Positions 5,551 to 47,924 of a DNA stretch of 64,000 nt are shown in pieces (the first letter of the stretch is position 1; each line of letters begins with the position of its first letter). Source of the DNA: Chiloscyllium plagiosum (lineage: Eukaryota). The notes below the pieces were generated by a model. The model was not told the origin of the DNA. It saw nothing but the letters and a program-made list of their open reading frames with translations, and did not search any database. Location of the stretch: contig NC_057718.1 in NCBI RefSeq assembly GCF_004010195.1, positions 71,943,271 to 72,007,270 of the forward strand. Reading direction: 5' to 3'. A program made the translations under genes and the position numbers.

Positions 5551-7350
5551 ATGCTCTGAGAATTATTTTCCAATCTTCACTAGACACAGGTGAGGTGCTG
5601 AAGAAATGCAAATATGTTTCTGACATTTCAAAATGCTGAACGATTATAAGACATTAGTCTTACTTCAGTGGCAAATTGTTAGAAGAAATCCTGAAAGCTC
5701 AAATATCCCGTCACTTAGAAAGACATGGAATGGTCAAGGATAGTCAGCATGCTTTGTTAGGGGAAAGTCATTCCTCATAAATTTGTTTGAATTCTTTGAG
5801 GAAGTGACAAGGAGGATTGATGAGTGAAGTGCAGTGATGTTGTCTACATGGATTTTAGTAAGGCATTTGACAAGGTCCCACATGGTAGGCTGGTCAAAAA
5901 AAGTAAAAGACAATGTGTCAAAATGGATCCAAAGTTAGTTTAGTGAAAGAAAACAAAGGGTAATGGTTAATGGTTGCCCTTGCAAATAGAAAGCTGTTTA
6001 AAGTGGTGTTCTGCAGGGCTCGGTCTGTTTTATACATTAACGATTTAGACTTGAATGTTGGGGACACAACATTTGCAGATGACAGAAAAATTGGCCATGT
6101 AGAGGATACAGATGGTTGGTAAGTGGGCAAGAAAGTGGCAGATGAAAAGGAGGACAAACATGAAAACAAATATGCAATAAATAGGAATATGCTGAGAAGG
6201 GTAGATGAAACGAGAGATTAGATTAGATTACTTACAGTGTGGAAACAGGCCCTTCGGCTCAACCAGTCCACATCGACCCTCCGAAGAGCAACCTACCCAG
6301 ACCCACTTCCTTCTGACTAATGCACCTAACACTATGGGCAATTAGCACAGCCAATTCACCTGACCTGCACATGTTTGGACTGTGGGAGGAAACCAGAGCA
6401 CTCGGAGTCCGAAGAGTAACCCACCCAGACCCATTTCCCTTTGACTAATGCACCTAACATGAAGGGCAATTTAGCATGGCCAATCCATCTGACTTGCACA
6501 TCCTTTGGACTGTGGGAGGAAACCAGAGCACTCGGAGGAAACCCACACAGACACAGGGAGAATGTGCAAACTCCACACAGACAGGCGCCCAAGGCTGGAA
6601 TCGAACCTGGGACCCTGGTGCCGTGCGGCAGCAGTGCTAACCACTGAGCCACCGTGCTGACCAGATCTTGGCTTGCAAGTGCACAGGTCCCCACAGGTAA
6701 ATAAGGTTGCAAAGAAAACATATGGAATGCTTTCATCATTGACAGAAGTATAGAATACAAGAGTAGGAATATAATGATGGAATTGTGTAAGATACTGGTG
6801 AGGCTACAACTGGAGCATTGTGTGCTGTTCTCGTCACTACATTACAGGAAGCACACAGTTACTCTGGAGAGTGTGCAGAGAAGATTTAGTGGAATGTTGC
6901 CAGGCTGGAAAGTTGTAGATACAAGGAGAGGTGGGGCTGTTTTCTTTGGAATAGAGAAGGCTGACAAGTGACATGATCAATGTATACAAAATTGTGAGGG
7001 GTACAGAGTAGATAGATGGAATCTGTTTCCCTTGACAAGAGTTCTCAAAAATCAGGGGTGATAGATTCAAGCAAAGTGACAGAGGAGTACATGGGATATG
7101 AGGAAAAACTATTTTTTGCAGTGGGTGGTGGGCATCTGGAATTCGTTGCCTGAGATGGTGGTGGAGGCAGAGACCCAAACTCTTGTAAGATGAACCTGGA
7201 TCTGTGCCTTAGATACTTAGAGCTGCAGGGCTATAGACCATGTGCAGGATGATGAGATTAGAAAGGACATCTCTGGGGCATCTTTGGGTTGGCATGGACA
7301 AGTTGAGCCAAATGCTCATTCCCCCTTCTGGGTTGCACCATTTCTATGGT
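5551..7350 (+). mobile_element. Degraded CR1 LINE 3' half, interrupted by a reverse HE1 SINE
   Basis: Sequence encoding DFSKAFDKVPH-like and LEHCVLFSSLHYRK motifs, plus 3' tail. Confidence 0.8.
6217..6657 (-). mobile_element. HE1 SINE with internal partial duplication or nested copy
   Basis: Reverse complement of HE1. The central segment is repeated (~6285-6403 and ~6409-6535). Confidence 0.85.
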
Positions 7351-7407: not shown

Positions 7408-7725
7408 AGATTAGACTAGATTTCCTACAGTATGGAAACAGGCCCTTCAGCCCAACAAGTCCACACCGACCCTCCAAAGAGTAACCCATCCAGACCTATT
7501 CCCCTACATTTACCCCTGACTAATGTAGCTAACAATATGGGCAATTTAGCATGGCCAATTCACCTAACCTGCACATCTTTGGATTGTGGGAGGAAACCCA
7601 CGCAGACACGGGGAGAATGTGCAAACTCCACACAGACAGTCGCCCAACTTGGGAACTGAACCTGGGTCCCTGGTGCTGTGAGGCAGCAGTGCTAACCACT
7701 GCGCCCCCTGAACCACCGTGCTGCC
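7408..7725 (-). mobile_element. HE1 SINE
   Basis: Reverse complement of HE1 head and CR1-like tail. Confidence 0.88.
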
Positions 7726-10614
7726 ATAGAGGTAAGGAGAAATTTCTAGTCTCAAATTGTCAGTCCTGTTTGTAATTGTCAACCCAGAAAGCAGTGGAAG
7801 CTGGGTCATTGAATGTATTCAAGACTGCATTAGATAGATTTTGGAGGGTACATGTAGAAGTTGTGAACTTGTGTAAAATTGCAAGATCATGAAATGGGAG
7901 AAGCATTACATGGTCCCTTTAAAAGATGGCATGCTTTTTCTAGGCTTGGAGAGTCTAAAAAATGTCTGCAGGCAGCAGCAATTTTCTTGAAACTGAAATG
8001 TGTGCATTCAAAGACCAAAACAATAGTTTTGAACTCCAGCCAAATAATTTGAACCAGGCCTTTGGTTATCACAAATTTATTAAAGTTAAATTTGATGATT
8101 TTGACAACTTAAAACCAAACTGATTGTAAAGAAATTAATAGGTCACCAAGGACACAAAAAAAGGGACATTTGGAAAGTCAGGCAGGGGAAACAGCCATCT
8201 GCCAACAGTTAACAACCATTATTTTGAAGGAAAGAATTATTGGCTCTCACAAAATTCTCTAAGCTTCAGAGTAAGAAACATCTAAATAAAGGTATCGCGA
8301 CACTCTTAGCTAATATTCCCAGCAAAAGACTTCAATGGACAAGGTGCCCTAACCAAAGAATTCAACTGTGAACGCATTCCTGAAAGAAGGTGAACAGAGA
8401 ATTCACACAAAGGTCCAGAAGATGCATCCTAGCTGTAATTTTGAAGAGACTGAATTCTATTGTTTTGCTATTTAAATGAGCTTTGTGATTTATTAAAACA
8501 GCACACCAATAGAATTCTGTTCAGTTAGTAGTTCGAGGGGAATTGTTTGGCTGTTAGTAACTCTGTTAATTTGGTCATAGTTGGAATTATATAAATAAAT
8601 TGTAACTTATTGATTATAGAGCGAGTGAAAGGATTTCATTTTATTTAATCACTCCTTCATAATATCGGAAAGTGGAAATAAGATCGTTATTAGATGAGCT
8701 AATTAAACGGCCTATTCCTGCTCACATTTCTTATGTTCTTACATTCCTATTGGGTGTCATCTGCAGCACTAATCTTTGGAGAACACTACTTCCCATCTTC
8801 TGTCACTCTTTATTCGCATTCTCTGTTTTCTATCTTGTTGCAAGGATTGAAGATAACAGCTTTGGTCTTTCCAGTATTGTAATCAAATGAAATTTCTAGT
8901 TGTCTAGTATTCAGTGTCAGACATGCAGTCACACAATTTAGATAGTGGAAGGATGATGAAAGACAGCAGTGGTGAGATATGCAATGTACCAAACATGTGG
9001 GAACCGTTTTACACACCATGCCCTTGAGAGACAGTGCACAGATGAGAAATGGAAGAGGGCCAAGGATATTTTTTGGGGGGACAAGATAATGATGTAGGAA
9101 CAAAAAAAGATGCCACTGTAGTTAATTTTCTGGCTAGGATTGGATATACAGAGTAGATTCAGGTGAATGTAATCCCATTCAAATAGTATGAAAGAGAGAA
9201 GCACTGGAGGAGGAGGAGGAGGTAGTCAGCCAAGCTGCAGGTACATTAAAATGGATAGTTTATTCAAGTGCCCGTCACAGTACTTTAACAAAAGCCTTTT
9301 TGGTACTGAAAAACAGTGCAAACCTAATCAGATAATTTATACATGTTCCTGGAAAGATGAGCGTGGATTTTCATAGGTAGCAGTCTATTCAAGGGCTTTA
9401 GGGTGAAAACAACACTTGGAAATGGAGCAGTAGTTTGTAACAACTGAGGGATCAAGGCATGGTCTTTAAGAGGAAATGTGAATAAGCAGACAGTATTAGA
9501 GTACAAAGTATCATTAACAATATAAAATAACAAAGACAACCCAAAAGGAAAATTTGATGGTTTGTAGGATTGGATAGTATGAATAGGATCAAGAAACGAA
9601 AGACTTTAATTTATATATGACCTTTCATTACCACTGATGTCGTAGAGCTCTTTCGAAGTACTTAAGTGGCTATGAACTGTAGTCACTGTTCAGAGGTAAG
9701 AAACACTGCTGCTAATTTGTGCACAGCAAAGTCTTAGAAAATGCACTGTGATAATGATCAGAAATTTATTTTTGTAATATTGACTGAGCCATACATAAGG
9801 ACACTAGGATAATCCTCCTGACTGTCACTACAGCAGAAAGGATGTCTCATCTGAAAAAGAGCTGATAGTACTGCAATAACGTTTCTGACTTATTAACCTT
9901 GAAACAATCATACTTGTCTGAATATCATCATTGAATCAGAGATCTAATGAAAAGAGATCTTTTCATTAGATCTATCTTTTCGGTCTATCAAGTCTGAACC
10001 AGTCAAAATCAACCACCTAACTACTCTAATCCCATTTTCAGCACTTGGTTCATAGCCTTGTATGACTCAACACCACAAGTGCACATCTAAATATTATAAA
10101 TGTAATGAGGTTTTCTGCCTCTGCCACTGTTACATATACCAGTTTAACTTCTTATAAATTATAAATATTTTACAGGTTGGTAAAACTTCCATGAGCATAG
10201 AAACAGAAATCTGCTTCTGAAACATTGTTCACCCTCTATATAAAAGTCTTTTAGTTTGTAATGTGGTAACAAGATTCCAAGTTGAATATAGAGAATAAAC
10301 TTTTATTACAGCATGCAAATGACAATGAATTAATTAATAAAACAATGTGTACTCTGAGAATCGTATTATAATTAATTATCAAGGAACAAACAATTCATTC
10401 AACTCATTAAAACACTGAGGAGAGCAATCCAATTCAATCCATTCCCACTTTCAAACCCCACAGACCAACACATTTATTTACCTCAAGCGTCCATCCAATT
10501 TCCTCTTGAAATCAGTGACCCATTTTTACTAACATCACAGTCATAGTTCTCAGTCAATACCATTAAAAAGTTCTCCTTCCAACATCGCTTTCCAAACATC
10601 TTAAATCTGAACAA

Positions 10615-13760: not shown

Positions 13761-14201
13761 CTTTCTGGATTCTCTAATCATTGTACAAGTTAACTGGAAC
13801 AATTTTTGTCTGCCTCACCAAAACTGTCATAATCTTTTCCAAGTCTATCAAAATTCCCTCAATCTCCTTTGCACTAACGAGAACAAATTTGAACTTTGCC
13901 AACCTAACCTTGTGTATATAATCCCTTATCCATGGGATCATTTTGCTAAATCTCCTCTCTATCCTGAAAGTTTCCTCATATCCTTCCTAAAAAGTGTGGT
14001 TAGTACTGGTCACTGGATGCAGTATTGTACTTGAGGAACGGTCTAACCAATGTGTTACAAAGGTTCACCAAACATCCCTTCTTTAGTATATAATATATCT
14101 ATTTTTTAAACCCAAAATCCCAAATACTTTGCATGACAAGCTTAATGCCGACAATTATTCCATTCTAAATTTTCATGCTTCAATTTTAATTCTATTCATA
14201 C

Positions 14202-14436
14202 CTGCTTTACCATCAGTTTTGGGGTCCATTATGACAAATTCTGGTCGAAGCTTGCTAATTCGCCTCCCTTTTAAAATTGGCACGAGTCCACCCAAGTATT
14301 CCAGGTACAGGGTGTAGCATGGGCCCCCTACCTCTGGGTCATCTTCTGTACGCTTCATGGTGCAATGCAGTCTTTCATTTCCTGCTGTCGGGTAACTGAC
14401 AAAATCCCGCATATTATTTGGGTCTGGGATGGGAGG
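14202..14436 (-). CDS. TULP4: TULP4/TULP4-like internal coding exon (235 bp, phase 0/1)
   Basis: ttttgtttAG|CCT CCC ATC CCA GAC...AAA GCA G|GTATGA. Translates PPIPDPNNMRDFVSYPTAGNERLHCTMKRTEDDPEVGGPCYTLYLEYLGGLVPILKGRRISKLRPEFVIMDPKTDGKA, near-identical to recalled TULP4. Confidence 0.95.
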
Positions 14437-19300: not shown

Positions 19301-21530
19301 CAAGCCGTCTACTTAGTTCTCTGGTGGTGTAGAGCTTCTTCAGTGTTGTGGAACTACACCCTCCATGAAAATAGACAATACTCTATCACATTCCTGAATT
19401 CTGCCATGTAGATGGTGGATATGCTCTGGAAAGTCAGCTAGGGAGTTACTCACTCCAGACTCTGACCTGTTTTCTTAGCCAATGTTACAAAATAGCTGGT
19501 CTAATTCAACTTCTGGTCAACGGTAAGCTTCAGAAGGTTAATAGTGGGGACTGTGGCAATGGTAAATGCTATTTAACATTAAGGGGAACTGATTGGATTC
19601 TTTCTTGTTGGAAACGGTTGTTACCTGATACTAGTATGGCATGAGCGTTATTTTCCACTAACCAATTCAAGCCCGAATGTTCTGCAGGACCTGCTGCATT
19701 CGGACATAAACTGGCTCAGATTCTGAGGAGTCAATGAATGGTGCTGGACATTGGGGATGTTCGCTGACAATTGTACAATCAGGAATAATGCTGGAAAGAA
19801 GGTCTTTGATGGACTAGTTGAAGACAGTTGGGCTGACATCACCCTGAGGACTCATAGATATGTCCTGGAGCTGAATTGTCTGACCTCCAACAACCACAGA
19901 CATCATCTTTTGTGTAAAAAATGAATCCAATTAGTGGAAAGTTTTCACCATAATTTCCATTGACTCCATATTTACAAGTGTTCTATAATGCCATACTGTC
20001 ACTTTACACTCATATACTTTTGTAAATGTGAAGGCCCAGAGAGTCTCCGACCCAGAATTTATTCTGTGCCCTTGCTATCCTCTGTCCTTCTTCAATTGAC
20101 ACTCAACAGTCAGATTACTGCTTCATTAGCTAAGATAGTAATAAGCATAGGTAGAAATCAGGTTTCCTTGTGCATGTTTGACCTGATGCCATAGGACATC
20201 CTAGCTGGAGTCAATATTGAGTATTCTCATGGAAACTCCCTCCAACTACATATCCCAGTGTTGCTTGCCTGACAGCACATATCCAGAGATAGTATGGAAA
20301 CATCTGGAATTTTTTCCCCCAAGGTATAATTCAGTGAATAGGACTGTCAGGCTGATACTTGACTAGTTTGTGGGACAGCTTTCCCAATTTTGACACAAGC
20401 CCTCAGATGCTAGCAGTGAGGACTTTGCAGAGTGAACAGGGCTGTGTTTGCAAATGTCAATGCTGGGTATTCTGTCCAATTTCGTTCTTCTTCTTAGACT
20501 TTATAGCATTTTAAATCAAATGATTCTTTGAAAGGTCATTCCAGAGAGTATTGGGCCTGAATTCACCTGAAAGCAAAGTTAGGTAAGGGCAAAAAGTTTC
20601 CTTTAGTTAAAAAAAAATCTATGATTCAGTCATTGTTCACCATAATACCATTACAAGATACGAAATTGAACCAAAACAATGTTACAAAAACATTTTTCAA
20701 ACTTTGAAACATTGAATGAGATACATAAAATCGAAAAAATTGAAAACATTGTGTAAAGCTTATTAGTATTGCAAAACTCCAAATTCTAAGCAGTCTTTAT
20801 TGAAACTTCCAGCCCTAATTTTACAACAATATTGTTCGTTTAAGCATTAACCATAATTTCGCATTTGGACAGCCAATTGCAAAATACTGTTCAAATTAAG
20901 GTCAAAGAACTTATAGCAAGGAAAAAAAGCCCAATAATGCATTGTGACTGTGCCATTCATCATGGACCCATCTATTCTAAAGCTATTTCTCAGCAACAAT
21001 CTCCATATGTCGTATTTCACATGCTCATTCAAATACTCGTTGCATGTCTTCAGGATTCCTGTCTCTCCCATCGTTCAGGCAGTGAGTTCCAGATATCCAC
21101 CATACACTCATGAAAAACTTACTTCAAATACTCTCCAAACCTCCTACTCCTTATCTTAAAACTGTGACCCTGGTTATTGATGCCACTACTAAGGATAAAG
21201 ATTCCTCCCTATCTATGTCCTGCATAACTCTGTACACCTCAGTCTAGACCCCCTCAGTCTCTCTGCTAAGGAAAAGAACCCCAGCCTATCTAATTTATCC
21301 TCAGAGGTGAATCACACCAGCCCAGGCAACCACCTGATGAATCTCCTTTCCACACTCTTTTGTGCAATCACATCCTTCCCAAAGTGCAGTGACCAGAACT
21401 GTACCCAGTATTCCAACTATAGCCTAAATAATATTATCCACGGCTCCATCATAATTTCCTTCGCTTGTTTTCAATGACTTGAGGATTAAAGGATTCCATA
21501 AACCTTATTAGCAAATTTATCTGAGTGTCC

Positions 21531-22365
21531 TAGGTTTGTGAGAAGATTTGTAGCTCGGGTGCTCGTTGTTGTGGTTCTGTTCGCCGAGCTGGGAATTTGT
21601 GTTGCAGACGTTTCATCCCCTGTCTCGGTGACATCCTCAGTGCTTGGGAGCCTCCTGTGAAGCACTTCTCTGATGTTTCCTCCAGCATTTATAGTGATTT
21701 GTATCTGCCGCTTCCGGTTGTCCGTTCCAGCTGTCAGCTGCAGTGGCCGGTATATTGGGTCCAGGTTGATGTGCTTATTGATTGAATCTGTAGATGAATG
21801 CCATGCCTCTAGGAATTCCCTGGCTGTTCTCTGTTTGGCTTGTCCTATAATAGTAGTGTTGTCCCAGTCGAACACATGTTGCTTGTTATCTGAGTGTGTG
21901 GCTACTAAGGATAGCTGGTCGTGTCGTTTCGTGGCTAGTTGGTGTTCATGGATGCGGATCATTAGCTGTCTTCCTGTTTGTCCTATGTAGTGTTTTGTGC
22001 AGTCCTTGCATGGGATTTTGTACACTACATTGGTTTTGCTCATGCTAGGTATCGGGTCCTTCGTCCTGGTGAGTTGTTGTTTGAAAGTGGCTGTTGATTT
22101 GTGTGCTGTTATGAGTCCTAGTGGTCGCAGTAGTCTGGCTGTCAGCTCGGAAATGCTCTTGACGTATGGTAGTGTGGCTAGTCCTTTGGGTTGCGGCATG
22201 TCCTCGTTCCGTTGTCTTTCCCTTAGGTATCTGTTGATAAAATTGCGCGGGTATCCGTTTTTGGCAAATACATTGTATAGGTGTTCTTCTTCCTCTTTTT
22301 GCAGTTCTGGTGTACTGCAGTGTGTTGTGGCCCTTTTGAATAGTGTCTTGATGCAACTGCTTTAA
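21531..22365 (-). mobile_element. Penelope-like element 3' part (RT thumb, GIY-YIG) with hammerhead motif
   Basis: ORF 21486-22199 NVVYKIPCKDCTKHYIGQTGR..RIHEH..REFLEAW. Hammerhead core at ~21604-21643. Confidence 0.92.
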
Positions 22366-25010: not shown

Positions 25011-25789
25011 TCCTTTCTGCAATGATCAAAAATGACCACCTAACTCTTCTAATCCCATTTTCCAGAACAAAGCCTTGTATTCCTTGGTACACTTCTTAAA
25101 TGCCATGAGAATTTCTGCTTCTACCACTCTTACCGGTAGTGAGCTTCATAATCCTACCAACCAAGAGGTGATAAAGTATTTCCTGACATCTCCTCTAAAC
25201 ATTCTATCCTTTACCTTAAATCCATGCCCCGGTCATCAATCCCTCTACTAAAGGGAAAGGTTTCTTGCGGTCTATCCTATCTGTGCCCTTCATAATTTAT
25301 GTGCATTCCTTGCATAATTTCCCATGACCTGCCATTTTAGTTTAAAGCCTCCCCAACCACTCTCACAAATACTCCCCCTAGGATATCAGCCCCAGTCCTG
25401 CCCAGTATAACCTATTCAGTTTGTACTCCCCCAGAACCAGTTCCAAAACCCCAAGAACCTGAAGCCCTCACCCTCACACCATCCCTTCAGCCAAGCATTC
25501 ATCTGATACATCATGCAATTTCTGTTCTAACTAGCACGGGCACTGGCAGTAATTCTGAGATCATGATCTTTGATGCCCTACTTTTCAATTTAATTCCTAA
25601 CTCCCTATATTCTCCTTTTAGGACCTCATACTTTTTATAAAGTTATGACATTGGTACCAACATGTACCATGACAACTGGTTGTTCACCCTTCCCCTCCAG
25701 AATATCCAGTAACTTTAGATCTCAACTGGAGTAATGTGTAAAATTGTGAGCACATGATGGGAAAGATGTAAGCACATCATATAGGGCAG

Positions 25790-26140
25790 TAAGGTGGCAC
25801 AGCAGCTCAGTGGTTAGCATTGCTGCCTCACAGCATCAGGGATCCGGGTTCGATTCCAGCTTCAAGTGATTGTCTATGCGGAGTTTGCACATCCTCCCCG
25901 TGTCTGCATGAGTTTCTGCTGGGTGCCCTGGTTTCCTCCCACAGTGATGTGAGCATTAGGTAGACTGGCCATGCTGAATTGCACATAGTTTGCAGAGATG
26001 TGTAGATTAGATGCATTAGCCACAGGAAATTCAGGGTTACAGAGATAGGGTAGGGGGATGGGTCGGGTAGGATACTCTTCGGATAGTCAGAGTGGACTTG
26101 TTGGGCCAAATGGCCTGTTTCCACAATGTAGGGATTCTGT
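25790..26140 (+). mobile_element. HE1 SINE
   Basis: tRNA-like head and CR1-like tail. Confidence 0.85.
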
Positions 26141-40286: not shown

Positions 40287-40582
40287 AAGTTAGGGAGAAG
40301 ATTTGTAGCTCGGGTGCTCTTGTTGTGGTTCTGTTCGCGAGCTGGGAATTTGTGTTGCAGACGTTTCGTCCCCTGTCTAGGTGACATCCTCAGTGCTTGG
40401 GAGCCTCCTGTGAAGCGCTTCTGTGGTGTTTCCTCCAGCATTTATAGTGACTTGTATCCGCTGCTTCCGGTTGTCAGTTCCAGTGGTCCGCTGCAGTGGC
40501 CGATATATTGGGTCCAGGTCGATGTGCTTGTTGATTGAATCAGTGGATGAGTGCCATGCCTCTAGGAATTCCCTGGCTGTTT
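40287..40582 (-). mobile_element. Penelope-like 3' terminal fragment (same family as 21531-22365)
   Basis: High similarity to 21531-21830. Confidence 0.88.
40356..40396 (-). ncRNA. Intact-looking minimal type I hammerhead ribozyme
   Basis: GCA-CTGAGGA-T-GTCACCT(AGAC)AGGGGAC-GAAAC-GTC^TGC: CUGANGA core, GAAA, GUC cleavage triplet, stem I GCA/UGC, palindromic ACGU stem III. Confidence 0.85.
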
Positions 40583-41077
40583 AGCTCTCGATGTTGCACT
40601 GACCTATGGAACCAATCTGAAGCCCATCTAACCTGCACTATTCCATTCTTGTCTATATGCCTATCCAATGACCATTTAAATGCCCTTAAAGTTGGCGAAT
40701 CTAATACTGTTGCAAACAGTGTGTTCCAAACCCCTACTACTCTCTAAGTAAAGAAACTACCTCTGACATCTGTCCAATATCTATCACAAGGACACTTAGT
40801 TTCTGGCCACCTGCAGAATCCATCTATCACCTATCTTGTCTAAAAGCTTGAGCGGAGTGTTCATGACATGGGTGAGGATCTTTCCTGCTGTTGTTAACAG
40901 GGAAATTCCATGACAGTTTCCGCATTCAGATCGATTGCCTCTCCTTTAGTAACAACTGCTGAGTCTCTAAAGTCTGCTGGTACATCTTCATTTATCCAGA
41001 TCATGATGAGAAGTTGATGCAATTGGTAATGAAGCAAGTTACCTCCAATTTTGTACATCTCAGCTGGTATTCCATTG

Positions 41078-41174
41078 AGAGTCAAGATTAGTGGTGCTGG
41101 AAAAGCACAGCAGTTCAGGCAGCATCCGGCTAATCTTGACTCTGAGCTCCAGCATCTGCAGTCCTCACTTTCGC
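41078..41174. mobile_element. ~97 bp inverted PLE-terminus insertion
   Basis: 14 bp TSD CTGGTATTCCATTG at 41064-41077 and 41175-41188. Inverted AGAGTCAAGATTAG/CTAATCTTGACTCT. Confidence 0.85.
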
Positions 41175-41287
41175 CTGGTATTCCATTGTGTTCAGCGGCC
41201 TTGTCATTTTTCAAGGTTTTGATGGCTTCCTTGACTTCAAGCTAATATTTTTCTTAGGGAGTAGTCAACAGGCTGTTTTGGAATATT

Positions 41288-41634
41288 ATAGAATCAGAGA
41301 ACCCCTACAGTCTGGAAACAGGCCCTCCAGCCCAACAAGTCCACAACGACCCTCTGAAGAGTAACCCACCCAGACTCATTCTCCTACTCTATTACTCTAC
41401 AATTCCCCCTGACAAATGCACCACACCCACACATCCCTGAACACTTTAGCTTGGTTAATTCATTCCAACCTGCACACCTTTAGACTGTGGGAGGAAACCG
41501 GAGAACCCAGAGGAAACCCACACAGACACGAGGGGAGAACGTGCAAACTCCACACAGACTGTCACCCAGAGGGTGGAATCAAATCGCTGGCCCCGTGAGA
41601 CAGCAGTGCTAACCACTAAGCCACTGTGCCACCC
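41288..41634 (-). mobile_element. HE1 SINE forming the 3' end of the zinc-finger insert
   Basis: Reverse-complement HE1, head at 41634, CR1-like tail ending ~41288. Confidence 0.9.
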
Positions 41635-41736
41635 TTGAGCCATCGTGGTGATGGGGTGGCAGGTGAAGACCAGCAGAAAACAAAAAAAATCCCTCCAACT
41701 CTCCCACCGCACCCACTGTCAGAACGGGCAAGAGGT

Positions 41737-42240
41737 TCAGTCTTGGGGGTGACCCACAGCAGCGTCAACGGCAGAATCCGATTGTTGGGAGCACTGGTGC
41801 CCCCGCTAGTGCCTTCACAAGTTGCAGGTCAACATGAACCTGCGCTCACATTTGAGACGGCTGAAGGGCATATCCCCGGTGTGGACCCGCCAATGGGCCA
41901 GCAGGTGGGAAGAATTGCTGAAGGCCTTCCCGCACTCAGGGTAGCGGAAGGGTCATTCGCTGGTGTGGACCCACCGGTGGGCCACGACGTGGGTCAAGTG
42001 AGTGAAGCCCTTCGTGCACTCGGAGCAGCTGAATGGCCTCACCCCAGCGTGGACCAGTTCATGCCTCAATAGGTGGGAGGAATTGCTGAAGGCCTCCCCG
42101 CACTCAGGGCAGGAGAACGGCCTCTCCCCAGTGTGACTCTGCCGATGAGTCTCCAATACAGACAGGACATGGAATCCTTTCCTGCAGTCGCCACACTTCC
42201 ATGGTTTCTCAATGTGGCGGGGTTTCTCGGGTTTCTCCAT
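41737..42240 (-). pseudogene. C2H2 zinc-finger pseudogene/retrocopy (about 5 fingers, in-frame stops)
   Basis: [98 protein letters not shown]. Confidence 0.9.
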
Positions 42241-45200
42241 CGCCAAAGCTTCAGCCGCACACAAATGTGTACACAGCCCCTCCCCACCATGAATTCCTCT
42301 TTCCAGACTGTATAAATGTTTCAGGCTCCATACTCAGTGCACTGCAACAGTAGGGTCTCTCATCCAGTCCCACTGATGGTGGAAAAATACTAAAACAGGA
42401 ACCAAAAAGCTTTGCTCCTTCTCACAGAATCATAATCGAAAATTGTTGTGATTTGAAAGTGAGGACTGCAGACATTGGAAAGTCAGAGTCAAAAAAGCAT
42501 GGTATGGGAAAAGCACAGCAGGAAAGGCAGCAGCTCAGGAGCGGAAGAGTCAACATTTCGGGCACAAGACCTTCATCTGTTGGTTTTGAAACTTCCATTT
42601 CAGATCTTCAAACAATAGATGTTGGACAGAATGTTGTTGATCATATTCCCGTCAAAAGGGACGGTTTGATTTAGAAGATCTTCAAAGTGCTCTCTCCAAC
42701 CGGAATTGATGTCAGCACTGCTCTTCAGGATGGCTGAACAATTTTTGCTTTTGAGAGGGGCTTTGAGATGGGCCACAAATAGCTTTAGTTGTTGGCATCG
42801 CTTGTTGTTGGATTTCCTGAGCTTTCTTCCTCCACTATTGGTTTTTCAGGTTTCGGTGCTCTTCTGGACTGCCGCTGATTGGTGGTTATTTTGTAAGGTG
42901 GTGAAAGCTTTTCTCTTTTCATCGATAAGTTATTGGAGTAGTTTGTCATTATCATCAAACCAATCCTGATGGGTTTTTATCTTGAACCCAATAGGTTCTT
43001 TGCAGGAGGTGATGATAGCAGTGTTCTTCTACAGATGGTGGGATTTGAGGCAGTTGTTCTTGAAGATTTTGTTGGAACTTCTATACATGGTTGATGCCTT
43101 GAAGGATGCCAACACTGAATTTCTTGAAAATATTCTGATTTTGGTGTTTCCTTTTGAGCCGAATCTTCATTCTCATGGTGGACGAGATGAGTCGATGGTC
43201 TGCCCAGCACTCGTCGGCACCAGTAACAGCTCTTGTTATCAGTACATCTTGTTGGTCCCATGATGTAGTCGATGAGATGCCAGTGTTTGGGGTGTGGATG
43301 CTGCCAGGAGATTTTTTGTCTGTTTTTCTGACGAAATAGGGTGCTTGTAATCACCAGAGTGGGTTCAGCACATGTGGTGAGGAGGTCTGTTCTATTGGCA
43401 TTGACCTCGCCAACTCCTTAATTGCTTATCATTCCAGTCCAGAGCCTATGATCTTTTCCGACTCTGGCGCTGGAGTCTCCCAAGTCTCTTGTCGTAGTTG
43501 GGAACAGAGGAAAGGACGTCATCAAGTTGGGCATAGAAGTTTAATTTTTGGAGTTCCCGGGCAACAAAGGCAGTTCTCCTCTCTGGTCGGTCTGAGTTTG
43601 GGTTATCTTTCAGAGTTCGTATATTCCAGATTCCAAATTTCATAGCTTCATTTCTCAATGTTTTTCGATCGCATGGCGATGATCTCTTTGGATGTGGCTT
43701 TCCAGACAGGATGGGGTGAAGCAGGCTATTTTTAGGGCACCTCTTCTAGCCATCTCCTAGTTTAGGGTGAGCAGAGTGAATCCAAAATAGGGCTGCTCAG
43801 ACGTGAATACTGCAACCAAACAACTTTCCTGCTTCTGTCCAAAAGTTGAGCGACTGAATCAACTTTTCACTGCTTTCCTGCCGGTTCTTGACTAGGAACT
43901 TTCAGCCATCGCATTGCCTGCTCTCGTCGCTCTCCCCCGCTTGCCAAAAGACTTGAAGTGATCCACAGAACGAAGATGCCTGTGCGTGTATTTGTTTAAT
44001 ATGTACGTGATTATGCACTCCAAGAAGCACACAGCACTTCACAAATCAATCAACTGATTCCAATGGCATGGAAACCACGATGATTGGAGCTGATAGATTT
44101 GTTGCAGCCTTCATTCGCCTTCACACACGTTGAGTTCGGACTAACTTTGTCTCCCTGTTCCACCGTTGAGGTCTTGGTTGGACTGTTTTTCATCAGGGAC
44201 CTTACCGCCATACCAGAAGCATAGCTCCAGACGGCATCGTTCACGAGATCTCAGGACCACACAAGCTACTCCACAATGACAAGGTGACAATCACGGAGAG
44301 ATATCCACTTTTTACATGCTCAAAACAACTAGAAAAGTTAGGTTCTGAACTACCTTCTTGAAATGTATAATGTTTTGCTATTATGTGATGAGCTGAATTG
44401 TGGAAAACAGTCATTTTAGCATTAAAGTAATTTGCAGTCTCTGAGCAATTGTGATCTTGAGCCACAACACATTTTTGTCCTATAAAGCAGCTAAACCAGC
44501 TGGTTTTTATTCTGAAACCTTTGCTGGACTCAAGGAGTTCAACTTGGCTCATTTAAGTACCTACCCACATATTGCATTTTGGCTGACAACACAACCATTT
44601 TGACAATTTCCTATGACCGATTCCAATACATGTTTCTCAAAACTTCCTTTTCTCATAGTAGATTTGATCCTAAGCACCTTCTTCTCAGTAGATTCCTTGT
44701 TCTTTCATTTTTGCATCGACTCTTTCACTAACAGCAAACTCCCTCCACTGCAGAGTTTTTTGACAAGTTAGCAAATATTTTCCGTTTAAATTTGAAGTCA
44801 GTTTCACACTTCAATTGCTTTCTTGTGTACAGTCTACTCTGTGACTATGTCTCACATGTTTGTAACACAGACTGTACCGCTTGCTTTATCCTTTGCCCAG
44901 TAGTTAAAAAGTAAAGCATTCTTGTGTGGATTGAAAACATGAGGTTGACTGCAAGTATAGCACATTTGAGCTTGTAAAGGACTGACTTACACACTGAGAA
45001 AAGCAAAAAAAAAAAAAAAAATTGGGGGGCCACAAAAATGGTGTTGGCTTATATGCCATATCAAGTTTGTGTTGAAATCTACAGTATAAAAATGTATAAT
45101 CTTGGCACAAGGAAGCATCTGAAAGCTAACTGTGGATGTTCCATCATATCTTCCCATAAGGAAAACTCTGCATGATAAGAAGAGCACGCAAATCTAACTA

Positions 45201-45526
45201 AGGAGGTTCTGCAATGAATCCGTCATTATTTTGACAATATACAGAGTCAGCTTAATCTGATCAAGGTTTTCAACTGTATAATGTTGAAGTTAAATCTATA
45301 CTTTTAATGTTTAGGAAATTCATAAATCATTAATATTTTTTCGTAACTTAAATATTCAAAGTCTTTGATTCACAGAATTAGATGTCCTGCTTTTGTCTTT
45401 TTGATACACTTAATTAACAAAATTACATTAAATTATATTCATACTTAATATGATATCAGTTTTGGTAGAAGTACATATATGACCACAGTAATTTTCAAGT
45501 TAAAATTGCTGATCCAACCTCTGTAC

Positions 45527-45693
45527 CTGAGTAGGACTTTCCAGCGTGTAAATATGCTCTCCATGATTATTATAAAATTTAACAGCAGCATTTTTCACTA
45601 CTGGAAGACTTCCCGACTCATAAAGTTGACTCTCTTTTTCCATGCCTGCTACAGCAAGTAAGTTCCCCTGGCTGCTCCACTGTACAACTGCAT
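45527..45693 (-). CDS. TULP4: TULP4/TULP4-like internal coding exon (167 bp, phase 1/0), WD40 region
   Basis: ttctAG|AT GCA GTT GTA CAG TGG...CCT ACT CAG|GTACAG. Translates (D)AVVQWSSQGNLLAVAGMEKESQLYESGSLPVVKNAAVKFYNNHGEHIYTLESPTQ and is in frame with the preceding exon. Homologous to TULP4 VVAQWCTQGDLLAVAGMERQ...VKFYNVRGEHIFTL. Confidence 0.92.
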
Positions 45694-46989
45694 CTAGAAT
45701 AATAAGGTAGACAATAAAAGAATTACCACAATAAACTGACAAAGTACATCATTTAAGTTTTCAAAAATACAAACAATTGTTGCATAACTCAAAAGAAGTA
45801 TTTAAATGCTAGGTGTCATTTAATAAGTTCTTTATGTATTGAACAATAGACCTGAAACCTGTGGAAGGAAGGAGTTATTAATTATTATATACAGAAAGCA
45901 TTCATTGAAGTAATTGCATATGAAATACACAACTTATGTATGCAAAAATGCTTAAGTTTCACATAAAATCTCAAACTTATTCCATCTGTGAGGCAGTCGA
46001 AGTACATGGTTACCAGGGTCCTGTACTCTTCATCCAGCCATAACCTCCTTGTCTACACCCAAATAGCTGAGAGGACTGGCTCCATAAAAGCCAACTCAGA
46101 AATCAAAACATGTGAATATCAGAAGGGAAGAGGGAAGAACCACTCTCAATGATTTCATATATAATTTCGATACAGATAGCCTGCAACTAAAACGAAAAGT
46201 TTGAATCCATGATAACAATACAAATTGCTGGAAAAGCTCAACATGTGGAAAAGCTCAGCATCATCAATGGAAATAAATCAGAGTTAATGTTTTGGGTCCT
46301 CAGTTTGAACCTACGTACTGCTGTGCTTGTAACTACTTCAACTGTTCATTCTGATGCATTTATAAAACTTTAAAACAAGGTTCTGACTTAATATTTTTGT
46401 AGCAGGCCAAGCCTCTCCAACCGCCCAGATATATTCCCTGTACCTGACAAAGCGATCTGACAACTACTACTTTTCAGTGCAAAAGTGTTGTTGCCACAGT
46501 TTCACTTGCAATCATGCCGATTATAAAGCCACCACTCCAGCAGTCAAATTACTGCAGATGATAAAGTCCCTTACAGCTTCTATTCAAAAATCAATTCATG
46601 ACTTATATGTTGTGTAACATATTGTTCAACATTTCACTGTTGAAATCTGTCTCTGTTGTTAAATCATGTTCTTAAGGATTCACTCCATCTGCCTCTGTTT
46701 CATCCTTATGGTATTTAAAAAGCATTTATTGCTCATCCCTCGTGGCTATTGAGAATGTGTTGATGAGCTGCCTTCTTGAATTATCGTTGTCAATGTGCTG
46801 TACATAGAGTTACAACACAGTTATGGAGGAATTTGAAGCAAAGATACTTAAAGAAGGCCCATATTTTTCCACATTACGATGGTGATTGACTTGTAAGGGA
46901 ACTTGCAGTGCGTGGGAATCCCATGTATCTGATGCCCTCGTCCTTCGTTTGTGGGTTTGGAAGGTTCTGGTTGAGGAACTTTAGGGAAC

Positions 46990-47550
46990 AGGTTCAATTC
47001 CAGACTGTGTGTGGAGTTTGCACATCTTTGGGTTTCGTCCAAAGATGGGCGGCACGGTGGCACAGTGGTTAGCACTGCTGCCTCACAGCGCCAGAGACCC
47101 GGGTTCAATTCCCGACTCAGGCGACTGACTGTGTGGAGTTTGCACGTTCTCCCCGTGTCTGCGTGGGTTTCCTTCGGGTGCTCCGGTTTCCTCCCACAGT
47201 CCAAAGATGTGCGGGTCAGGTGAATTTGCCATGCTAAATTGCCCGTAGTGTTAGGTTAAAGGGGTAAATGTAGGGGTATGGGTGGGTTGCGCTTCGGCGG
47301 GTCGGTGTGGACTTGTTGGGCCGAAGGGCCTGTTTCCACACTGTAAGTAATCTAATGTGCAAGTTAGGTGGACTGGCTACGTTGAGTTGCCCATAGTGTC
47401 CTGGGATGTGTAAGTTAGAGAACTATGAATGGGAAATGTAGGATTACAGGGATAGGGTACTGGAGGGCGAGCTTGGGAGGGATGCTCTTCGGAGAGTCTA
47501 CTTGTGGACTAGTTGGACCAAATGGCCCGTTTCCAACTGTAGGGATTCTA
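46990..47550 (+). mobile_element. Nested HE1 SINEs: a consensus-like full copy (~47047-47356) inside an older copy
   Basis: The inner copy starts GGGCGGCACGGTGGCACAGTGGTTAGC and retains CpGs. The outer copy continues on both sides. Confidence 0.88.
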
Positions 47551-47924
47551 TGCAAAAGCTGACTGCTCAGTACCAAGGTTCAGGCCATCTGCTCAATGCT
47601 GGAGAGGATCTCACAGTGTGATGGGTAGGATCCAATCATTGTTGTTTTGGTCAACCAATGTCATGGGCATTGCACGGCCAGTAATCTATTTGATCTATTC
47701 ATTGGATGTGATCTTCACTGATTTGGCCAATACTTATTGGTATCCCTATTAGCCCTTCAAAAGCGGGTGGTAAGATGCCTACTTGAACCACTGGAATCTG
47801 TTCAGTGTAGGTATAACTAGAATGTTTTTAGAAATGGAGTCCCAGGATTTTGACCCTTAAAGTGGCACAAAAGGAACAGCAATATATTTCCAAGTCAGAA
47901 TGATGCATGGCTTGAAGAGAACCT

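What the first reader, a model, noticed from the sequence alone, without database searches (positions are those of the whole stretch)
41288..42628. C2H2 zinc-finger cassette apparently retrotransposed using an HE1 SINE as its 3' tail
Seen: the RTE reading frame (minus strand ..DGNMINN|IPKQPVDYSL) rejoins across a 1.34 kb insert flanked by GAATATT (41281-41287) and GAATGTT (42629-42635), a 7 bp near-TSD. On the minus strand the insert contains a leader with a small PLE-terminus piece (~42454-42577), an intronless five-finger ORF, ~100 bp of 3' sequence and a complete HE1 SINE in the same orientation whose CR1-like tail forms the exact 3' junction. There is no poly(A). Established: HE1 shares its 3' tail with HER1/CR1 LINEs, whose RT recognises that tail. 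Inference: ZNF transcripts ending in HE1 can be mobilised by CR1 RT, which could help disperse the large shark C2H2-ZNF repertoire.
Basis: partly seen in the sequence, partly recalled or inferred. Interest (0 to 1): 0.75.

Follow-up and report, generated by a model that had tools for sequence, protein, structure and literature searches.

The report
Dead zinc-finger copy with SINE tail
A broken copy of a shark zinc-finger gene was pasted into an old transposon in one piece and ends exactly at the tail of a short repeat, which suggests that a normally choosy copying enzyme moved a host gene by gripping that tail, though this is one dead copy and not yet a shown route for spreading such genes.

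Summary
The insertion is real. Removing 1,348 bases (the 1,341-base insert plus one copy of a 6/7 target duplication) is the best join against an independent LINE protein that reads through the site; all 10 top joins of 1,800 remove exactly this length. The insert ends in the CR1-type tail of a full-length HE1-like SINE and has no poly(A). Corrections: the five-finger 'ORF' is a pseudogene (three stops, two lost cysteines); the Penelope piece has its own near-duplication, so it is a separate insertion; and 'intronless' shows nothing, since finger arrays are normally one exon. One event primed at the SINE tail by a CR1-type reverse transcriptase is likely (about 0.87 in all). Whether the SINE already sat behind the source gene (0.45), was joined by a template switch (0.30) or marks a repeated composite family (0.12) is undecided: no genome, paralogous DNA or laid reads were available. 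The dispersal claim has no support: listed shark zinc-finger models share one contig per species (5 of 5 and 3 of 3). This is a neat single case of a known kind of process.

The parts
41288..42628 (-). Whole insert (1,341 bases): ZNF-derived leader, ZNF pseudogene, spacer, SINE
   Evidence: Register fixed by alignment to LINE protein P0128
42629..42635 (-). 5' copy of the target duplication (AACATTC on minus; extendable to 42637)
41281..41287 (-). 3' copy of the target duplication (AATATTC on minus; extendable to 41289); its ATTC equals the start of the tail repeat unit
41288..41634 (-). Full-length HE1-like tRNA-headed SINE of the older type seen in the window; 6-base gap next to the B box
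   Evidence: 69-80% identity to 10 window copies; name recalled
41288..41340 (-). CR1-type tail: remnant stem (about 41321-41333) and two degenerate octamers (41295-41302, 41287-41294)
   Evidence: Sequence; motif ATTCTRTG in PMC8665684 and PMC5729268; fold not better than shuffles, z 0.19
41636..41650 (-). 15-base look-alike of the SINE head, directly upstream of the true head
   Evidence: 13/15 to one window copy, 10/12 to two others; 1.5% of random 20-mers score as well as the 10/12 match
41635..41736 (-). 102-base 3' spacer after the ZNF stop codon, no poly(A) signal
41737..42240 (-). Five-finger C2H2 pseudogene (167 codons, three internal stops) of a carpet-shark ZNF family
   Evidence: Pfam PF13465/PF00096; C-terminus 70% identical over 30 aa to H. 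ocellatum P0082; decay at motif positions
42241..42340 (-). Family-shared leader; in another frame a degenerate remnant of the first finger of other shark ZNFs
   Evidence: P0001 match, 0 of 500 shuffles; P0031 and P0052 matches, 5 and 7 of 500
42459..42577 (.). Penelope-like stub, a separate insertion bounded by its own near-duplication (42444-42458 and 42578-42591)
42636..43562 (-). Host dead LINE, 5' part (endonuclease to linker)
   Evidence: tblastn to P0123-P0130; P0130 has PF03372 and PF00078; 'RTE' label recalled
40835..41280 (-). Host dead LINE, 3' part (start of RT), itself interrupted by another stub

Best explanation
A one-off, now dead retrocopy made in a single target-primed reverse transcription event. 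A ZNF locus elsewhere had an HE1-like SINE about 100 bases behind its stop codon, in sense orientation. An RNA running through that SINE was bound at the SINE's CR1-type tail by the partner LINE's reverse transcriptase. Priming took place at a nick in an old LINE whose ATTC matches the tail repeat, copying ran through the SINE and about 1 kb of ZNF sequence, and repair left a 7-9 base duplication. Shown: one insert, its register, the duplication, the tail at the junction, no poly(A), a decayed ZNF. Inferred: the RNA intermediate, the enzyme, and that the SINE was already in the source locus.
For: The register is fixed by protein and holds a 6/7 duplication, chance about 0.0015. The tail ends within 0-3 bases of that junction; a chance coincidence with an independent SINE is about 0.0006 (hand estimate: 7 positions x 10 copies per 63 kb x 1/2). 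No poly(A) or poly(A) signal. It is the only ZNF stretch in the window (360 of 364 tblastn hits fall at 41-43 kb: 330 plus 32 less the two bins elsewhere are single stray hits). HE1 shares its tail with HER1 (table in PMC3747384). CR1-type RT is thought to need a 3' hairpin plus octamer (PMC8665684), which limits which RNAs can hitchhike (PMC5470649). About one such SINE per 6 kb makes ZNF loci with a sense SINE close behind likely.
Against: No source locus, second copy or transcript was seen. The SINE is complete to its first base, as a template switch also predicts. No intron loss can be shown. The SINE's distance from a mixed window consensus (20 of 133 non-CpG sites) cannot be told apart from ZNF decay (17 of 151 sites, or 13 after setting aside changes shared with P0048 and P0082), so the SINE is not demonstrably older than the event. 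The tail hairpin does not fold better than shuffles (110 of 200 fold as well).
Confidence: 0.45

Rival explanations
1. Template-switch chimera. The CR1-type RT primed on a free HE1 RNA, copied it to its 5' end, then jumped to a ZNF RNA and went on. It is the same single event, but no ZNF transcript ever contained the SINE.
For: The SINE is complete to its first base. A 15-base look-alike of the SINE head lies exactly at the ZNF-SINE boundary (13/15), as slippage or a homology-guided jump could leave. Template switching by CR1 RT is proposed for bird SINE heads (PMC5729268) and for hagfish SINE chimeras (PMC7245038).
Against: The ZNF part has no poly(A) or signal, so the jump would have to land internally or on an unprocessed end. 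Similar head duplications are visible in 2 of the 10 other window copies, so the look-alike needs no switch.
Confidence: 0.3
2. Member of a repeated composite element family (ZNF-derived body plus HE1 tail) that is copied again and again by CR1-type RT, like a SINE with an mRNA-derived head.
For: Leader and C-terminus are shared with H. ocellatum models P0001 and P0082, so the body belongs to a multi-copy family. snoRTE is a precedent for a cellular RNA fused to a LINE tail becoming a family (PMC7245038).
Against: No second copy in 64 kb. No look-alike in the scan's indexed windows (0 windows; coverage is partial and needs about 90% identity). Relatives found are gene models on small scaffolds or one large contig per species.
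Confidence: 0.12
3. DNA-level copy: a genomic segment (ZNF exon, flank and resident SINE) was patched into a staggered break by repair synthesis, with no RNA step.
For: No intron loss is shown. The leader holds two acceptor-like sites (14 of 18 and 13 of 18 pyrimidines). The first bases of the insert partly repeat the target (CAACAT), as repair can leave.
Against: A random DNA segment should not end at a SINE's last repeat. The acceptor-like sites are common: chance 26% and 46% in 270 bases.
Confidence: 0.08
4. Two separate insertions: a ZNF retrocopy first, then an HE1 landing at its 3' junction.
For: Lack of an own duplication is weak evidence, since only 2 of 9 other copies show one. The site contains ATTC, which the tail could favour. 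Nested insertions are common here (two stubs).
Against: No remnant of poly(A) on either side of the SINE. The coincidence is about 0.0006 without targeting (hand estimate). The 3' flank of the SINE matches the 5' flank of the whole insert, not its own 5' flank.
Confidence: 0.05

Closest known systems
HE1 V-SINE / HER1 LINE pair of sharks and rays (listed in PMC3747384, table passage; original paper not read)
   Same: tRNA-like head, multi-copy, CR1-type tail at the 3' junction, short target duplication overlapping the tail unit
   Different: Carries about 1 kb of ZNF gene sequence 5' of the head inside the same duplication
Chimeric retrocopies made by LINE template switching (U6-L1 type cited in PMC5729268 and PMC2912911; PittSINE model for CR1; passages)
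   Same: Two RNA-derived parts inside one duplication; the 3' part supplies the RT-recognised end
   Different: The 5' part comes from a protein-coding gene and the 3' part is a whole SINE, not a truncated LINE; whether a switch occurred is untested
5' transduction by SVA and L1 in primates (recalled; search found 0 papers with my terms)
   Same: Upstream host sequence carried along because a longer RNA ends in the element
   Different: Those rely on poly(A) recognition by L1; here the handle would be a sequence-specific CR1-type tail
snoRTE / PlatSINE1 of platypus (PMC7245038, passage)
   Same: Cellular RNA sequence fused to a stringent LINE's tail
   Different: That is a uniform multi-copy family; only one copy is known here
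Processed pseudogenes made by L1 (PMC3747384, PMC5470649; passages)
   Same: Dispersed dead gene copy with a target duplication
   Different: No poly(A); intron loss not shown

Membership tests
Retroposed (TPRT) insertion | Target-site duplication in the register of the empty site | tested here: met
   6/7 (7/9) in the register fixed by P0128; chance about 0.0015. In a loose scan without that register the same match scores no better than 598 of 1,477 random positions, so its weight comes from the fixed register.
Retroposed (TPRT) insertion | Empty orthologous site in a relative | not tested
   No genome held; no reads were laid on the locus
L1-type processed pseudogene | 3' poly(A) | tested here: not met
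   No A-run of 6 or more, no AATAAA/ATTAAA
L1-type processed pseudogene | Precise intron loss against a parent gene | not testable with these tools
   No parent DNA obtained; finger arrays are usually one exon (recalled)
CR1-mobilised element | 3' octamer microsatellite at the junction | tested here: met
   Two degenerate units, each 6/8 or better against ATTCTRTG (motif)
CR1-mobilised element | 3' hairpin | tested here: inconclusive
   Stem present in the minimum-energy fold but z 0.19; three other copies z -0.49 to -1.64
HE1 V-SINE | Match to the published HE1 consensus and V domain | not testable with these tools
   No repeat library; Rfam 0 matches; identity to 10 window copies 69-80%; name recalled
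SINE-tail transduction from a resident SINE | Source locus or RNA with the same SINE at the same position | not tested
   Collections searched held no shark paralog DNA; no reads laid
Template-switch chimera | Junction absent from every source locus; 3' partner complete at its 5' end | tested here: inconclusive
   SINE complete and head look-alike at the boundary; source loci not seen
Composite SINE family | Many copies with uniform structure and individual duplications | tested here: inconclusive
   One copy in 64 kb; 0 look-alike windows, a weak search
Functional ZNF retrogene | Intact frame and zinc ligands | tested here: not met
   Three stops, two lost cysteines

The most novel reading that the evidence does not exclude
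Sense HE1 SINEs lying just behind clustered shark ZNF genes act as built-in handles. They let the abundant, sequence-specific CR1-type enzyme export ZNF copies across the genome repeatedly, in effect a SINE-tailed ZNF retroposon family. This would be a general way round the rule that stringent LINEs do not make retrogenes.
Probability: 0.15. Interest if true: 0.7.

Novelty: new variant of a known kind. Interest (0 to 1): 0.4.

Why it matters
Reviews hold that CR1 needs its own tail and so rarely copies host RNAs (PMC5470649). Yet a 2026 preprint counts 14,081 retrocopies in cartilaginous fishes and attributes non-mammalian retrocopying to CR1 or Tx1 by association only, and CR1 makes up 21.78% of the whale shark genome. 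A host-gene copy that ends at a CR1-type SINE tail without poly(A) shows one concrete way this could happen, and gives a simple genome-wide test: count retrocopies that end in SINE tails. As one dead copy it changes little about how working ZNF genes multiply.

Tried and rejected
No whole genome is held. Sequencing-run search: 24 runs listed; 20 hold part of 40650-43300 (shares 0.14-0.40, three coded organisms, 8 studies); no RNA holder listed. No reads were laid on the locus, so these rows are no evidence, and empty sites, paralogous junctions and expression stay open. Searches for paralogous DNA found nothing: viral contigs by protein (15 pattern matches, 0 confirmed) and by motif (0); metagenome contigs by two motifs (0 and 0). 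These collections hold little shark DNA. Word-index search for the host LINE failed (0 of 16 candidates); the HMMER search gave 9. Cluster look-up of 7 shark ZNF models gave 7 singletons, so no copy number. Earlier-findings look-ups by sequence, relatives and words gave nothing on this cassette; two searches returned unrelated notes. Rejected as uninformative: acceptor-like sites in the leader; lack of an own SINE duplication (one of the 10 other copies, at 47 kb, was left out because it lies among other SINE pieces); relative dating of SINE and ZNF (mixed subfamilies, few sites); tail folding. Unconstrained local alignment of the insert's flanks picked a spurious match; only the protein-fixed register was used. 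Ten literature searches showed no paper on HE1-tailed or SINE-tailed ZNF retrocopies in sharks. Most subscription papers are not held, Suh 2015 was not available, and the preprint's supplements could not be seen and may list such copies.

Full report
Setting. The window is shark-like DNA; the best ZNF relatives are Hemiscyllium and Chiloscyllium gene models. The locus lies between two minus-strand exon-like frames, 45503-45748 (weak hit to PF24797, WDR35/TULP4 N-terminal, E 8.2e-6, below the family cut-off) and 14176-14436 (no Pfam hit; TULP4-like by recall). It is therefore probably intronic, in the host gene's orientation. No genome was held, so the work rests on the window, on proteins and on papers.

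The insertion is exact. Cutting out the insert restores ..DGNMINNIPKQPVDYSL. A HMMER search with the 5' side alone gave 9 proteins. One of them, P0128, continues ..VTNNIPKQPV, and others place the host as a dead endonuclease-RT LINE from about 43562 to 40835 ('RTE' is a recalled label). Of 1,800 trial excisions scored against P0128, the 10 best all remove 1,348 bases. In that register the flanks read GAATATT and GAATGTT: 6 of 7, or 7 of 9 if extended, with chance 0.0014-0.0017. The duplication ends in ATTC on the minus strand, which is also the start of the tail repeat, so the 3' junction is ambiguous by a few bases.

The SINE. 41288-41634 is full length and 69-80% alike to 10 other window copies. 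It groups by eye with the older copies whose tails resemble ATTCTRTG, not with those ending in AATCT repeats. ATTCTRTG plus a hairpin is the CR1 3' signature (PMC8665684 and PMC5729268, passages), and HE1 is listed with partner HER1 (PMC3747384, table passage). The name HE1 is recalled; Rfam gave 0 matches. The hairpin is present in the best fold but is not better than shuffles. There is no poly(A) and no poly(A) signal. The SINE has no duplication of its own, but only 2 of 9 other copies show one and the scan's null is high (598 of 1,477), so this says little. The stronger argument is position: the tail ends within about 3 bases of a junction fixed independently by protein, which I estimate by hand at about 0.0006 for an unrelated insertion.

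The ZNF part is dead. It spans 167 codons (42240-41737) with five fingers, three stops and two lost cysteines; Pfam sees three open fingers. At motif positions 17 of 151 informative sites have changed, or 13 once changes shared with P0048 and P0082 are set aside. The C-terminus matches P0082 (70% over 30 residues) and the in-frame leader matches P0001, so both ends belong to a carpet-shark family. Part of the leader looks like a decayed first finger of other shark ZNFs (5 and 7 of 500 shuffles; 2 other proteins gave no signal, 263 and 46 of 500). The Penelope-like piece has its own near-duplication (13 of 15 columns, null 0.0076) and is a separate insertion, before or after the main event. 'Intronless' is not evidence of processing, as finger arrays are usually one exon (recalled). 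Two acceptor-like sites in the leader are within chance.

Mechanism. One event primed at the SINE tail explains the duplication, the junction and the missing poly(A); I put it at about 0.87. Three versions remain. A resident SINE behind the source gene (0.45) is favoured by SINE density, about one per 6 kb, and by the lack of a processed ZNF 3' end. A template switch (0.30) is favoured by the complete SINE head and a 15-base head look-alike at the boundary, though 2 of 10 other copies also show doubled heads. A repeated composite family (0.12) has only the multi-copy body in its favour. Dating does not separate them: the SINE differs from a mixed consensus at 20 of 133 sites (others 5-30%), overlapping the ZNF decay. 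DNA-level patching (0.08) and sequential insertion (0.05) fit the junction poorly.

The dispersal claim. This fits tandem clusters, as described for zebrafish and mammals (PMC10547256, passages; the word 'shark' is not in its main text). Protein sets miss dead dispersed copies, so their number is unknown. Searches for paralogous DNA gave nothing, and no reads were laid, so the decisive test is open.

Comparison and novelty. It works like known chimeric or transduced retrocopies: U6-L1-type chimeras and CR1 template switching, snoRTE, and SVA 5' transduction (recalled). It fails the poly(A) test for an L1 processed pseudogene and the intact-frame test for a retrogene. Ten searches showed no report of SINE-tailed ZNF copies in sharks, within a library lacking most subscription papers; Suh 2015 was not held. 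All papers cited were seen as search listings or passages, none in full: PMC3747384, PMC5470649, PMC7245038, PMC5729268, PMC8665684, PMC8455134, PMC10547256, PMC2912911 and bioRxiv 10.64898/2026.06.26.734816, whose supplements could not be seen. Earlier notes on this genome mention Penelope stubs, a local template switch and another non-poly(A) retrocopy; they are unchecked leads.

Verdict. A real, cleanly bounded insertion with a probable tail-primed origin, a dead cargo and unproven generality. New variant of a known kind; interest 0.4, rising to 0.7 if such copies prove frequent (probability 0.15).

Noticed in passing
window 41064-41188: A second Penelope-like stub in the same dead LINE, 84-98% alike to other stubs, with a perfect 14-base duplication; probably younger than the stub in the leader.
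   Followed up: partly
window 42615-42637 (minus): The first bases of the insert partly repeat the target (CAACATTC then CAACATCT), and the junction reads ATTCTGT, like the tail octamer; possibly microhomology or slippage at 5' joining.
   Followed up: no
window 7700-7735 and 25785-25815: Two other HE1-like copies have doubled head sequences.
   Followed up: no
window 6230-6660 and 47047-47552: HE1-like copies with internal duplication or stacked SINE pieces.
   Followed up: no
window HE1-like copies: Two tail types coexist, ATTCTRTG-like in more diverged copies and AATCT repeats in less diverged ones, suggesting a change of partner LINE or tail over time.
   Followed up: partly
window 45503-45748 and 14176-14436 (minus): Exon-like frames of a TULP4-like host gene (PF24797 weak hit; second exon by recall only).
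   Followed up: partly
window 21489-22361 (minus): A 291-codon open frame resembling the end of a Penelope-like RT/GIY-YIG protein (by recall); part of it matches 40289-40581 at 92.5%.
   Followed up: no
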